Part shown: piece after piece, positions 16,483 to 18,223 of the stretch
Position numbering within the stretch: the first letter of the stretch is position 1
How the letters are laid out: the number at the start of each line of letters is the position of its first letter
From: a virus
Taxonomy: Duplodnaviria > Heunggongvirae > Uroviricota > Caudoviricetes
Direction: 5' to 3' (one strand)
Virus record (IMG/VR): IMGVR_UViG_3300029875_000034
Span: 1-18,223 of that record
Length of the DNA: 18,223 bases
Program-made: the position numbers and the translations under genes
The notes under the pieces: generated by a model
Databases searched by the model: none
Told to the model about the DNA's origin: nothing
The model's input: only the letters and a program-made list of their open reading frames with translations

Positions 16483-16487
16483 ATGTA

Positions 16488-16499
16488 ATGAACGCATCC
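16488..16499 (+). repeat. Left sub-terminal inverted repeat of the IS (ATGAACGCATCC)
   Basis: Exact reverse complement of 17909-17920. Confidence 0.7.
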
Positions 16500-16629
16500 C
16501 CAATCATCAAATCCGGAGCACTGTGATGGATGGGGAGAATATCGGGAAGGTGTGGAACCTGGCAGATTTCCGGCATCATAGTGCCCAATACGGGATGCAG
16601 AAAGCTCCCTCAGACTGGAGACTCCACAA

Positions 16630-17649
16630 ATGAAATATACACCGGTTGGCGTTGATATCGCAAAACATCTGATTCAGGTTCACTTCATTGATGAGAACAC
16701 AGGTGACGTGGTGGATAAGCAACTTCGCAGAAGAGATTTTCTGGAATATTTCAGCAACCGGGAGTCATGTCTGATTGGTATGGAGGCCTGTGGAGGCTCT
16801 CAGCACTGGGCACGGGAACTGACAAAGCTGGGGCATAAAGTCCGGTTGTTGCAGGCCCGCTTCGTTAAGGCATTTGTCATGGGCAATAAGAATGACGTGA
16901 TGGATGCACGGGCTATCTGGATGGCAGTTCAGCAGCCAGGTAAAGAAATCGCCGTCAAAACAGAAGAACAACAGTCAGTGCTGGTTTTGCACCGTTCCCG
17001 CAGACAATTGGTTAAGTTCCGCACCATGCAGATTAATTCTCTGCACGGCACGCTCCTGGAATTTGGTGAAACAATTCACAAAGGTCGGGCAGCAATGGAG
17101 CGGGAGTTCCCTGAAGCACTGGAGCGAATGAAAGAGAGATTGCCACCGTATCTCATTACTGTGCTGGAAAACCAGTACAACCGACTGAATGAGCTGGACT
17201 CACTGATAGAGGATATTGAAAAACAGCTTACCAGCGTGGCGAAACAGAATGAGACCTGTAAGCGGTTGCTGGATATTCCCGGCGTTGGGCCACTTATTGC
17301 GACGGCAGCTGTGGCCACCATGGGGGAAGCATCAGCGTTTAAATCAGGGCGAGAGTTCGCGGCTTATGTTGGTCTGGTGCCAAGACAGACTGGCTCAGGA
17401 GGGAAAATCCGCTTGCTGGGGATAAGCAAACGTGGTGATACATATCTGCGAACCCTGTTTATCCATGGCGCAAGGGCGGCAGCATTACTGACCAAAGAAC
17501 CTGGTCTGTGGATAACCGAACTGAAAAAACGTCGTCCGGTCGGCGTGGCAACCGTCGCCATGGCAAACAAGCTGGCACGAACAGTGTGGGCAATAGCCGC
17601 ACATGGACGTAAATACGATAAAGAATACGTCAGTATCAGGTCATATTAA
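16630..17649 (+). CDS. IS110-family transposase/recombinase (DEDD RuvC-like N-domain plus C-terminal Tnp domain)
   Basis: 339 aa; N-terminal VGVDIAKHL, MEACGG and NKNDVMDA motifs; C-terminal LLDIPGVGPLIATAAVATMG...AYVGLVPRQTGSGGK typical of the family; RBS GGAG upstream. Confidence 0.9.
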   Translation: MKYTPVGVDIAKHLIQVHFIDENTGDVVDKQLRRRDFLEYFSNRESCLIGMEACGGSQHWARELTKLGHKVRLLQARFVKAFVMGNKNDVMDARAIWMAVQQPGKEIAVKTEEQQSVLVLHRSRRQLVKFRTMQINSLHGTLLEFGETIHKGRAAMEREFPEALERMKERLPPYLITVLENQYNRLNELDSLIEDIEKQLTSVAKQNETCKRLLDIPGVGPLIATAAVATMGEASAFKSGREFAAYVGLVPRQTGSGGKIRLLGISKRGDTYLRTLFIHGARAAALLTKEPGLWITELKKRRPVGVATVAMANKLARTVWAIAAHGRKYDKEYVSIRSY

Positions 17650-17689
17650 TCACTGATACCGATAAACGATGAATTCTTAATAAAAAGGC

Positions 17690-17900
17690 GAATGCTGAAA
17701 GGTTGCTCTGGCGACCAGTGTGATGACAAAGACAGGTAAGACCGGGACTCACTAAACCTGAATGGGGTTTTGGGCTTGAAGCCCGCGCAGTAAATGAGGT
17801 GTGAGTCAGCGAATTACATAGGGGCTCGCAGCTTTATGGCTGCAATAAAGCCGGATATAAAGCTGCAACCTACCGTCAATGTCAAAACAATGGAAGCTGT
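17690..17900 (+). ncRNA. Candidate IS-encoded structured ncRNA (bridge/seek RNA) in the 3' non-coding end of the IS
   Basis: Nested stems read from sequence: GCAGCTTTAT (17829-17838) pairs with ATAAAGCTGC (17859-17868) around an inner GGCT-GCAATAA-AGCC hairpin; GGGC-TTGAA-GCCC hairpin upstream. Exact RNA ends unknown. Confidence 0.35.
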
Positions 17901-17908
17901 GCAAAACG

Positions 17909-17920
17909 GGATGCGTTCAT
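17909..17920 (+). repeat. Right sub-terminal inverted repeat of the IS (GGATGCGTTCAT)
   Basis: Exact reverse complement of 16488-16499. Confidence 0.7.
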
Positions 17921-17930
17921 ATAAAATCCC

Positions 17931-18223
17931 ATGACAGAGACAGAATCAGCGATTCTGGCGCACGCCCGACGATGTGCGCCAGCGGAGTCGTGCGGCTTCG
18001 TAGTGAGAACGCCGGAGGGGGAAAGATATTTTCCCTGCGTGAATATCTCCGGTGAGCCGGAGGAGTATTTCCGAATGTCGCCGGAGGACTGGTTGCGTGC
18101 ACAAATGCAGGGTGAGATTGTGGCGCTGGTGCACAGTCATCCCGGTGGTCTGCCCTGGCTGAGTGAGGCTGACCGGCGGCTGCAGGTGCAGAGTGATTTG
18201 CCGTGGTGGCTGGTCTGCCGGGG
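17931..18223 (+). CDS. K: Minor tail protein K (JAB/MPN domain), N-terminal part; continues beyond the window
   Basis: Translation MTETESAILAHARRCAPAESCGFVV...VALVHSHPGGLPWLSEADRRLQVQSDLPWWLVCRG matches lambda gpK as recalled, including the JAMM-like HSHPGG...SEAD motif; the ORF is open at the window end. Confidence 0.85.
   Translation, partial: MTETESAILAHARRCAPAESCGFVVRTPEGERYFPCVNISGEPEEYFRMSPEDWLRAQMQGEIVALVHSHPGGLPWLSEADRRLQVQSDLPWWLVCR

What the first reader, a model, noticed from the sequence alone, without database searches (positions are those of the whole stretch)
16484..18223. The IS insertion may be polar on distal tail genes, suggesting a defective or remodelled prophage
The insertion separates L from K inside a translationally coupled late operon, and the IS 3' end is heavily structured. 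Expression of K and the downstream tail-tip genes may be reduced or depend on read-through or an IS-derived outward promoter. That bears on whether the prophage can still make infectious particles.
Basis: inference. Interest (0 to 1): 0.4.

Follow-up and report, generated by a model that had tools for sequence, protein, structure and literature searches.

The report
RNA-guided IS parked between tail genes
The element between phage tail genes L and K is an RNA-guided insertion sequence (a close relative of ISEc11) whose own guide RNA is written to hit exactly this L/K junction; it breaks no gene, and whether it cripples the prophage cannot be decided from sequence.

Summary
A 1443-bp IS (about 16481-17923, transposase 16630-17649) sits between the stop codon of tail gene L and the start codon of K, in the same direction as the late operon.

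The "heavily structured 3' end" is not a terminator. It is the seekRNA/bridge-RNA gene of an IS1111-type (IS110-family) element, and the transposase is 91% identical to the experimentally studied ISEc11. Its two guide segments match the L/K junction: CGCAGTAAAT matches the left flank, and AUGGGGUUUU pairs with AAAATCCCAT on the right.

In seven related ISs these two blocks are the only hypervariable parts of the RNA, and each matches its own insertion site. The same IS lies at the same L/K position and orientation in at least three different prophage types. About 10,600 empty L/K sites exist in E. coli genomes.

On polarity:
- No gene is broken.
- No same-strand terminator or outward promoter was found.
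- All 23 upstream late genes are intact.
- K, I and J are intact in related IS-bearing prophages.
- The 5-nt L-stop/K-start juxtaposition is lost, and K has no Shine-Dalgarno sequence, so reduced K translation is plausible but untested.

Verdict: a new member of a known kind, of moderate interest.

The parts
15784..16482 (+). Tail gene L (232 aa). Its TAA stop is kept: T comes from the target and AA from the IS under the ISEc11 end convention.
   Evidence: PF05100, E 5e-100. 100% aa identity to L of the uninterrupted prophage L011.
16481..17923 (+). IS1111-type (IS110-family) insertion sequence, 1443 bp, an ISEc11/ISEc66 relative. Layout: 7-nt left extension AAATGTA, subterminal IRs, 3-nt right extension ATA. 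The boundary is ambiguous within the shared TAAAT.
   Evidence: ISEc11 ends and length are from PMC11187229 and its supplement. Other copies at >=99.4% nucleotide identity are.
16488..16500 (+). Left subterminal inverted repeat, ATGAACGCATCCC.
   Evidence: I1: 13 nt, 100% complementary.
16630..17649 (+). Transposase (339 aa, DEDD/RuvC-like N-terminal domain plus PF02371 C-terminal domain; GLVPRQTGSGG motif).
   Evidence: 100% identical to WP_000878012.1. 91% identical to TnpEc11. 94% identical to the ISEc66 transposase.
17731..17811 (+). Predicted short seekRNA (target-binding module). It has an outer stem at 17746-17752/17801-17807, a CCU/AGG helix, a large internal loop carrying both guides, and a distal hairpin at 17772-17784.
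   Evidence: The centroid fold gives this architecture. Compensatory changes occur in the stem and the hairpin. ISEc11 has an 82-nt peak seekRNA in the homologous region.
17762..17771 (+). T guide AUGGGGUUUU. It pairs with the top strand AAAATCCCAT (17923-17932), which runs into the K start codon, with one G:T wobble.
   Evidence: the only two matches to AAAYYCCAT in the window. It is a hypervariable block in relatives that tracks each right flank. Permutation p = 6e-5.
17786..17796 (+). B guide CGCAGUAAAU(G). It is identical to the L end plus junction at 16475-16485, so it pairs with the bottom strand.
   Evidence: D14: 2 matches in the window against 0.06 expected. It is a hypervariable block that tracks each left flank. 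Permutation p = 2e-4.
17813..17866 (+). Donor-matching part of the long seekRNA. AUUACAU (17813-17819) is complementary to the IS left end ATGTAAT. AUAUAAA (17855-17861) is identical to the right end/junction ATATAAA (17919-17925). There is a stem GCAGCU/AGCUGC and an inner GGC/GCC hairpin.
   Evidence: In relatives with left extension AATGAGA the first segment is UCUCAU. The second reads AUACAGAG or AUAUAGAG where the right end/flank is CATAC-AG or CATAT-AGAG. Helices 4 and 5 are conserved.
17908..17920 (+). Right subterminal inverted repeat, GGGATGCGTTCAT.
   Evidence: I1.
17924..17933 (+). Right half of the target, AAATCCCATG: the original stop-codon AA, the 5-nt spacer, and the K start codon.
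   Evidence: Empty site CGCAGTAAATCCCATG in L011, in phage lambda, and in 4321 of 5426 E. coli genomes.
17931..18223 (+). Tail-tip assembly gene K (JAB + C40 peptidase family). The first 97 codons are open and the gene runs off the window.
   Evidence: PF14464. 97% aa identity to K of L011 over residues 1-97.

Best explanation
The insert is an active-looking IS1111-type member of the IS110 family. It is a sibling of ISEc11 and ISEc66 that moves by RNA-guided recombination.

How it targets (shown unless marked):
- Its 3' non-coding region encodes a seekRNA (bridge RNA).
- One guide segment pairs with the top strand of the right flank (AAAATCCCAT, including the AT of the K start codon).
- The other guide pairs with the bottom strand of the left flank (CGCAGTAAAT, including the L stop codon).
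- Two further segments match the IS's own ends.
- The L/K junction of lambda-like tails is therefore this element's programmed landing site. It always arrives at the same nucleotide and in the operon's orientation.

Consequences for the phage (inferred):
- The element has no detectable promoter or same-strand terminator in its integrated form. The Q-antiterminated late transcript should read through it into K-I-J, transcribing the transposase and guide RNA on the way.
- The main risk to the phage is translational. K loses its position 5 nt after the L stop codon, has no Shine-Dalgarno sequence, and now follows 281 nt of untranslated, processed, protein-bound RNA. K output may therefore fall.
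- Whether it falls below what tail assembly needs is unknown.
For: Identity of the element:
- Pfam PF01548 + PF02371 and NCBIfam NF033542.
- 91% aa identity to TnpEc11.
- 13-nt subterminal IRs.
- The same 1443-bp length and the same end sequences as ISEc11.

Guides match the target:
- CGCAGTAAAT occurs only at the L end and in the RNA region: 2 matches against 0.06 expected.
- The complement of AAAYYCCAT occurs only in the RNA region, and the motif itself only at the K start.

Natural reprogramming:
- In an alignment of 8 related elements the RNA region is conserved except for two blocks.
- Each block matches that element's own flanks better than any other's. The true assignment gave the highest total score; 6e-5 and 2e-4 of random reassignments reached it.
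- Helices carry compensatory changes: 96.9% of cells pair against 25-37% when slid.

Site specificity:
- 7 of 10 near-identical copies fetched from E. coli genomes, plus 2 further copies and 5 IMG/VR contigs, are at the identical L/K position and orientation.
- They lie in prophages with lambda-type heads, HK97-type heads and other head types.
- The three other sites share the motif. otnK carries GTAAATCCCATGAC, 14 of 14 nt identical.

Mechanism precedent:
- ISEc11 seekRNA is essential for circle formation and transposition, and it is reprogrammable (PMC11187229).
- IS621 excision needs read-through transcription from upstream (PMC13626964).

Polarity:
- No + strand terminator-like or promoter-like site lies in the IS.
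- All upstream genes are intact.
- K, I and J are intact in related loci.
Against: - No experiment on this element exists. The RNA ends, its processing and its binding to the transposase are all inferred from ISEc11.
- The T guide needs one G:T wobble.
- The thermodynamic signal of the RNA is weak (z about -2).
- Some of the repeated L/K insertions could have spread by homologous recombination between prophages rather than by independent transposition.
- The promoter and terminator scans are simple consensus scans. Rho-dependent termination and mRNA cleavage during seekRNA processing cannot be assessed.
- The statement that transcription reads through rests on textbook lambda Q biology, not on data for this prophage. 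Q itself lies outside the window.
Confidence: 0.8

Rival explanations
1. One reading: the insertion is strongly polar. K, and perhaps I and J, are under-expressed, so the prophage can no longer make infectious tailed particles and is on its way to decay.
For: - L-stop/K-start coupling is severed and K lacks a Shine-Dalgarno sequence.
- K is preceded by 281 nt of untranslated RNA that is probably processed (for ISEc11).
- A weak 5-bp hairpin, GGGAU/AUCCC, forms just 5' of the K AUG only when the IS is present.
- No outward promoter was found.
- The IS is absent from 50,697 deposited phage genomes.
- Some IS-bearing prophages carry other IS elements and tail-fibre pseudogenes.
Against: - No ORF is broken and no + strand terminator was found.
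- Q-modified polymerase ignores terminators (established knowledge).
- K, I and J are intact in all related loci.
- All 23 upstream late genes in the window are intact.
- The absence from phage records has no statistical weight: about 0.2 records would be expected.
- In the lambda reference record, K is annotated from an ATG 148 nt after the L stop. If that is the true start, K does not need tight coupling to L.
- From general lambda genetics rather than from any result here, K is not a component of the finished particle, so small amounts may suffice.
Confidence: 0.25
2. The position is an accident. The IS landed between L and K by chance or reached the various prophages only through homologous recombination, and the sequence matches in its 3' region are coincidental.
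For: - Lambdoid prophages recombine freely.
- The L and K flanks are 95-99% identical between prophages, which would allow the IS to be copied by recombination.
Against: - Three non-phage sites (a plasmid ABC permease, otnK, an autotransporter) carry the same flank motif.
- Guide blocks co-vary with flanks across 8 elements that have 8 different targets.
- The 10-mer match has an expectation of 0.06 in the window.
- ISEc11 has been shown experimentally to work this way.
Confidence: 0.03
3. The insertion is a neutral-to-beneficial passenger that has been selected for this spot. Sitting in the late operon, it is switched on only when the prophage is induced. It can then copy itself into, or excise from, replicating lambdoid genomes and travel in virions.
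For: - Every L/K copy seen lies in the operon's orientation, although the guides fix orientation, so this does not by itself show selection.
- The element lacks its own promoter in integrated form (for ISEc11).
- Read-through transcription drives excision of IS621, and a strong upstream promoter raises it about 100-fold.
- One strain (LST200A) carries the IS at L/K in two different prophages.
- The target exists in about 10,600 copies in 4321 of 5426 genomes.
- Seven of eight relatives sit 5-10 nt upstream of an ATG and co-oriented with the downstream gene.
Against: - Only about 0.1% of L/K sites are occupied.
- No virion-derived genome carries the IS.
- For ISEc11 the re-joined empty target was not detected after circle formation, so self-healing excision is doubtful.
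- There are no expression data.
Confidence: 0.2

Closest known systems
ISEc11 (IS1111 family; Prosseda 2006; Siddiquee et al. 2024, PMC11187229)
   Same: - 1443 bp, with a 339-aa transposase that is 91% identical.
- The same subterminal IRs and end sequences (...TTCATATA; AATGTAATGAAC...).
- A 3' non-coding region alignable along its length, with identical stems.
- The T guide lies 5' of the B guide, and the two overlap on AAAT in the target.
- An apparent 4-nt AAAT repeat at the junctions.
   Different: - The guide blocks differ. ISEc11 has CAGUAUUUU and CGUGAAAAU for the target GTGAAAATACTG. Here they are UGGGGUUUU and GCGCAGUAAAU for CGCAGTAAATCCCAT.
- About 86% nucleotide identity to the ISEc11-like copy L018.
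- This element's target is a phage tail-gene junction.
ISEc66 (named in RefSeq/ISfinder; L013)
   Same: - 90.7% nucleotide identity and 94.4% aa identity.
- The same architecture and ends.
   Different: - Different guide blocks (AAUUCUUU and CACAGGAAAU).
- A different site, upstream of an amino-acid ABC transporter gene.
- Identity is below the level usually taken for the same IS, and RefSeq does not name this transposase as ISEc66.
IS621 bridge RNA / bridge recombinase (Durrant et al. 2024; PMC13626964)
   Same: - The same enzyme family (DEDD + PF02371).
- One RNA with a target-binding and a donor-binding module, each pairing with both DNA strands.
- The integrated copy depends on read-through transcription.
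   Different: - In IS621 the RNA lies 5' of the gene and the guide order is reversed.
- IS621 has no subterminal IRs and targets REP sequences.
- No Rfam family matched the region here.
Classical polar IS insertions in operons (IS1, IS2 and similar, in gal/lac)
   Same: An IS placed between genes of one transcription unit separates the distal genes from their promoter-proximal context.
   Different: - Classical polarity comes from terminators or Rho sites inside the IS, or from interrupted translation.
- Here no terminator-like site was found on the operon strand.
- The operon is antiterminated, and the site is chosen by an RNA guide rather than at random.

Membership tests
IS1111 group of the IS110 family | DEDD (RuvC-like) N-terminal transposase domain plus a PF02371 C-terminal domain | tested here: met
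   PF01548, E 2.6e-11, and PF02371, E 6e-22. NF033542 scores 330.8 bits against a cut-off of 140.
IS1111 group of the IS110 family | Transposase of 330-350 aa with a GL-P----S/TG motif (PMC11187229) | tested here: met
   339 aa, with GLVPRQTGSGG at residues 248-258 in the translation. 91% identical to TnpEc11.
IS1111 group of the IS110 family | Subterminal inverted repeats with short terminal extensions (7 nt on the left, 3 nt on the right) | tested here: met
   13-nt perfect IRs at 16488-16500 and 17908-17920. With extensions AAATGTA and ATA, the flanks rejoin to the observed empty site CGCAGT|AAATCCCATG.
IS1111 group of the IS110 family | The long non-coding region lies downstream of the transposase gene | tested here: met
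   258 nt lie between the stop codon (17649) and the right IR (17908), against 129 nt between the left IR and the transposase start codon (sequence).
seekRNA / bridge-RNA guided elements | [quoted passage not shown] | tested here: met
   T guide at 17762-17771 and B guide at 17786-17796. They overlap on AAAT. The order is the same as in ISEc11.
seekRNA / bridge-RNA guided elements | Guide segments change with the target among related elements (natural reprogramming) | tested here: met
   8 relatives with 8 targets. The diagonal means are 7.0 against 3.75 (T) and 5.9 against 3.2 (B). Permutation p = 6e-5 and 2e-4. Alignment.
seekRNA / bridge-RNA guided elements | A conserved RNA secondary structure presents the guides in an internal loop | tested here: met
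   5 helices, 96.9% of cells paired, 6 pairs with changes on both sides; slid controls pair at 25-37%. The centroid fold of 17731-17811 shows the same architecture. There are only 8 sequences, and the structure was drawn from these same sequences.
seekRNA / bridge-RNA guided elements | The RNA is made, binds the transposase and is required for circle formation and insertion | not testable with these tools
   Shown for ISEc11 only.
seekRNA / bridge-RNA guided elements | Site-specific and orientation-specific insertion | tested here: met
   All 15 L/K copies seen (the window, 9 in complete genomes, 5 in IMG/VR) have the same left junction and orientation. Right junctions could be read for 13 of them and differ by one base in a few copies. 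Off-target sites share the motif.
Polar (operon-blocking) IS insertion | A transcription terminator inside the IS on the operon strand | tested here: not met
   The only + strand terminator-like site in 16300-18223 is at 16434-16450, inside L and outside the IS. This is a simple consensus scan, and Rho-dependent sites were not assessed.
Polar (operon-blocking) IS insertion | Loss of translational coupling or of the ribosome-binding site for the distal gene | tested here: inconclusive
   The L stop to K start distance grows from 5 nt to 1448 nt. There is no Shine-Dalgarno sequence in either state. The actual effect on K translation is unknown.
Polar (operon-blocking) IS insertion | Reduced expression of distal genes, or a defective phage | not testable with these tools
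   This needs RNA-seq, reporter fusions and induction assays.

The most novel reading that the evidence does not exclude
This IS lineage has evolved a guide against the single most repeated conserved sequence of the E. coli mobilome that lies inside a strongly inducible operon. As a result, its transposase and guide RNA would be produced in a burst only when a lambdoid prophage enters lytic growth. The element would then copy itself into, or cut itself out of, the many replicating phage genomes and ride out in virions. It would be a phage-specific, induction-triggered hitch-hiker. More broadly, the ISEc11/ISEc66 clade may preferentially program its guides to the few nucleotides between a ribosome-binding site or stop codon and the next start codon of co-oriented genes.
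Probability: 0.15. Interest if true: 0.65.

Novelty: new member of a known kind. Interest (0 to 1): 0.35.

Why it matters
- It replaces a vague worry (an IS that may be polar) with a concrete, testable mechanism. The insertion site is written in the element's own RNA, and the structured 3' end is that RNA.
- It gives a clean natural example of seekRNA reprogramming among 80-94% identical transposases within one species, with the target present about 10,600 times in sequenced E. coli.
- For prophage annotation, an IS110-family element between L and K should not by itself be read as a sign of a dead prophage.
- For phage biology, it poses a sharp question: does K need its position next to the L stop codon?
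- For genome engineering, it offers a ready-made guide/target pair for an ISEc11-type recombinase.

Tried and rejected
- Rfam (E up to 1) on 16000-18223 found no family. Bridge RNA/seekRNA of this type is not in the library, or not detectable with it.
- Whole-region MFE folding gave an uninformative global structure and a weak z-score. The useful structure came from comparing relatives.
- I looked for an IS-derived outward promoter. The scan found none on the + strand. By eye, GTGCAA-15 nt-TATAAA at the right end is too poor to count.
- I looked for the IS in deposited phage genomes and found none. The test has no power, as one search shows.
- I tested whether the extra A at the right junction (TATAAAATCCC) came from a 4-A target variant. 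No such empty site exists in IMG/VR, and the otnK empty site has 3 A's. Under the ISEc11 end convention the 4-A form is the expected product, and the commoner 3-A form is one base shorter.
- I considered a 15-codon ORF (17890-17934) whose TGA overlaps the K ATG as a possible re-coupling device. I rejected it because it has no ribosome-binding site and is out of frame in the 3-A copies.
- The Prosseda 2006 Pjunc paper could not be read.
- A literature search for this IS at lambdoid tail genes, and for its protein accession, found nothing.
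Full report
**What is in the window.**
The window is the late region of a lambdoid prophage, all on the + strand. It contains:
- a tRNA-Gly at 73-147;
- a lysis cassette;
- an HNH endonuclease, then small and large terminase, portal, HK97-type protease and capsid genes;
- lambda-type tail genes through the tape-measure gene (12205-15450), M, L (15784-16482) and the start of K (17931 onward).

An uninterrupted near-isogenic prophage, L011 in strain XH992, is 92-97% identical over the whole window. All 23 of its late proteins upstream of K align full-length in a single uninterrupted segment to the window. L is 100% identical.

**The observation.**
Between L and K lies a complete insertion sequence.
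- It has perfect 13-nt subterminal inverted repeats at 16488-16500 and 17908-17920.
- It has a 339-aa ORF at 16630-17649 on the operon strand, with the DEDD_Tnp_IS110 and Transposase_20 domains. The ORF scores 331 bits against NCBIfam 'IS110 family RNA-guided transposase'.
- In L011 the empty site reads TTTCGCAGTAAATCCCATGAC: the L stop TAA, five bases, then the K ATG.
- Phage lambda has the same junction.

The IS therefore does separate two closely abutted genes without breaking either. Nothing resembling a Shine-Dalgarno sequence precedes K, with or without the IS. Coupling of K to L is plausible but not demonstrated.

**What the 'structured 3' end' is.**
Thermodynamically the 3' region is unremarkable, with a z-score of -1.76 over 281 nt and -2.07 over the 145-nt core. 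Rfam has nothing for it. Its content is what matters.
- The 10-mer CGCAGTAAAT occurs twice in the 18-kb window, against 0.06 expected. One copy is at the L end/junction (16475-16484) and one is at 17786-17795.
- AUGGGGUUUU at 17762-17771 is the complement, with one G:T wobble, of AAAATCCCAT at the K start. These are the only two matches to that motif in the window.
- Two further segments match the element's own ends. AUUACAU (17813-17819) is the complement of the left end ATGTAAT. AUAUAAA (17855-17861) equals the right end/junction.

This is the layout described for seekRNAs of IS1111-family elements. The non-coding region lies downstream of the transposase gene. A top-strand match lies 5' of a bottom-strand match, and the two overlap at the insertion point (PMC11187229).

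The transposase is 91% identical to that of ISEc11, the element on which that work was done. The ISEc11 non-coding region printed in that paper's supplement aligns with this one along its length. It has the same stems and the same terminal ...GGGATGCGTTCATATA. ISEc11 is also 1443 bp.

Using its end convention (7-nt left extension, 3-nt right extension), the IS here is 16481-17923. The flanks then rejoin to exactly the observed empty site, CGCAGT|AAATCCCATG.

**Comparative test.**
E. coli genomes hold a family of relatives at 79-91% nucleotide identity. I fetched seven with different surroundings.
- In the alignment of their 3' regions everything is conserved except two blocks, which sit exactly at the two guide positions.
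- Each element's blocks match its own flanks. The longest-run score averages 7.0 on the diagonal against 3.75 off it for the T guide, and 5.9 against 3.2 for the B guide.
- Of random reassignments of flanks to elements, 6e-5 (T) and 2e-4 (B) reach the true total.
- The donor-matching segments also co-vary. Elements whose left extension is AATGAGA have UCUCAU instead of UUACAU. Elements whose right end/flank is CATAC-AG or CATAT-AGAG have AUACAGAG or AUAUAGAG.
- The proposed helices hold in 96.9% of cells, against 25-37% when partners are slid. Six pairs change on both sides.
- The centroid fold of 17731-17811 gives the same stem, internal loop and hairpin shape, with both guides in the loop. 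It is 81 nt long, matching the 82-nt peak seekRNA of ISEc11.

One relative (L018) carries near-ISEc11 guides and sits in an IS66-family tnpB next to GTGAAAAT-type sequence, which agrees with the published ISEc11 target.

**Site specificity in nature.**
- Copies at 99.4% identity or more occur in 12 E. coli records.
- Of ten fetched, seven are at the L/K junction in the same orientation. The prophages differ in L and K alleles, chromosomal position and head type.
- Two more were found through the junction search. One is a second copy in strain LST200A, inside a true lambda-type prophage.
- Five IMG/VR contigs carry the same left junction.
- The three non-phage insertions share the motif. The otnK empty site contains GTAAATCCCATGAC, identical over 14 nt.
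- The empty L/K site is present about 10,600 times in 4321 of 5426 complete genomes, so occupancy is roughly 0.1%.

**The polarity question.**

Shown:
- No ORF is interrupted.
- The L stop codon is regenerated.
- ATCCC-ATG is preserved in front of K.
- The consensus scan finds no terminator-like and no promoter-like site on the + strand inside the IS.
- K, I and J are annotated intact in all related IS-bearing prophages. However, the IS copies are so similar that the insertions are probably recent, so this says little about selection.

Inferred from established knowledge:
- Lambda-type late operons are transcribed by Q-modified polymerase that reads through terminators, so transcriptional polarity should be small.
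- For IS621, read-through from upstream is required for excision, and a strong upstream promoter raises excision about 100-fold (PMC13626964).

Open:
- K translation. The K start now lies 281 nt after the transposase stop codon, behind an RNA that is probably cut out and protein-bound. A weak GGGAU/AUCCC hairpin abuts the AUG.
- In the lambda reference record, K is annotated from an ATG 148 nt after the L stop. Lambda carries a 1-nt deletion relative to its relatives. If that annotation reflects the real start, tight coupling is not indispensable. I did not verify this further.
- The absence of the IS from 50,697 phage records carries no weight. Only 177-197 of them contain this junction, so about 0.2 IS-bearing records would be expected.

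**Verdict.**
- The insertion is the programmed landing of an RNA-guided IS1111-type element, a naturally re-targeted sibling of ISEc11 and ISEc66. It is not a random hit.
- The structured 3' end is its guide RNA.
- A translational effect on K is plausible but unproven.
- Nothing in the sequence indicates a defective prophage.

The mechanism class has been known since 2024, and RefSeq already labels such proteins 'RNA-guided transposase'. I found no description of this element or of its L/K target in the searchable literature or in the ISEc11 paper's supplements. It is therefore best filed as a new member of a known kind.

Noticed in passing
L013-L019 (relatives); window 16475-16490 and 17920-17933: Seven of eight ISEc11/ISEc66-type relatives sit 5-10 nt upstream of an ATG and co-oriented with the downstream gene. 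The left flank is often Shine-Dalgarno-like (AGGA, GGAG) or a stop codon; one example lies between istA and istB of IS21. The guide's conserved bases require only the AT of the ATG, so the G and the gene orientation look selected rather than forced.
   Followed up: partly
L025 (phage lambda NC_001416, 14127-14276): Lambda has the same TAAATCCCATG junction. An ORF starting 5 nt after L encodes the first ~45 residues of the longer K homologues. A 1-nt deletion relative to its relatives (GAGGCTATTTCC against GAGGAGTATTTCC) then breaks the frame, so K is annotated from an internal ATG 148 nt downstream (199 aa against 247 aa). This is either a real lab-strain frameshift or an old sequencing error.
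   Followed up: partly
window 17920-17930; L001, L002, L004, L012, L020-L023, L026: The right junction varies by one base between copies. TATAAAATCCC is found in the window, L012 and the otnK copy. TATAAATCCC is found in most others. TATAAACCC is found in L001. The empty sites examined all have three A's.
   Followed up: partly
window 16483-16491: The conserved IS left end places ATG-TAA-TGA (a start codon directly followed by stop codons) immediately after the L stop codon. In relatives it falls just after a Shine-Dalgarno-like flank, forming a minimal 'start-stop' unit. Its function is unknown.
   Followed up: no
window 17890-17934: A 14-codon ORF (MEAVQNGMRSYKIP) ends with a TGA that overlaps the K ATG (ATGA). 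It exists only in copies with the 4-A junction and has no ribosome-binding site, so it is probably fortuitous.
   Followed up: partly
L004 (strain CFIAFB20190172, otnK/ygbK); L003; L005: Off-target insertions of the same IS interrupt a chromosomal 3-oxo-tetronate kinase gene, a plasmid ABC-transporter permease and an autotransporter. Each site resembles GTAAA(N)CCCATG.
   Followed up: partly
L007 and L012 (strain LST200A): One genome carries the IS at the L/K junction of two different prophages. One has a 3.2-kb tape-measure gene and the other is a true lambda-type prophage near ompT. This suggests spread between co-resident prophages, by transposition or by recombination.
   Followed up: partly
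window 17630-17662: A hairpin (UCAGUAUCAG ... CUGAUACCGA) encloses the transposase stop codon and is conserved across all relatives in the alignment. It may be a processing or boundary signal for the long seekRNA.
   Followed up: no
window 5925-9580: There is a mosaic patch relative to the otherwise 97-100% identical prophage L011. Portal, protease and capsid are only 85-90% identical at protein level. The head-tail connector (9261-9572) is only 48% identical, and DNA similarity is lost over 9182-9576.
   Followed up: no
window 73-147 and 2498-3526: A tRNA-Gly (TCC) lies upstream of the lysis genes; the relative L011 has a four-tRNA array there. A reverse-strand YfbU-family gene and an HNH endonuclease sit between the lysis and terminase genes.
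   Followed up: no
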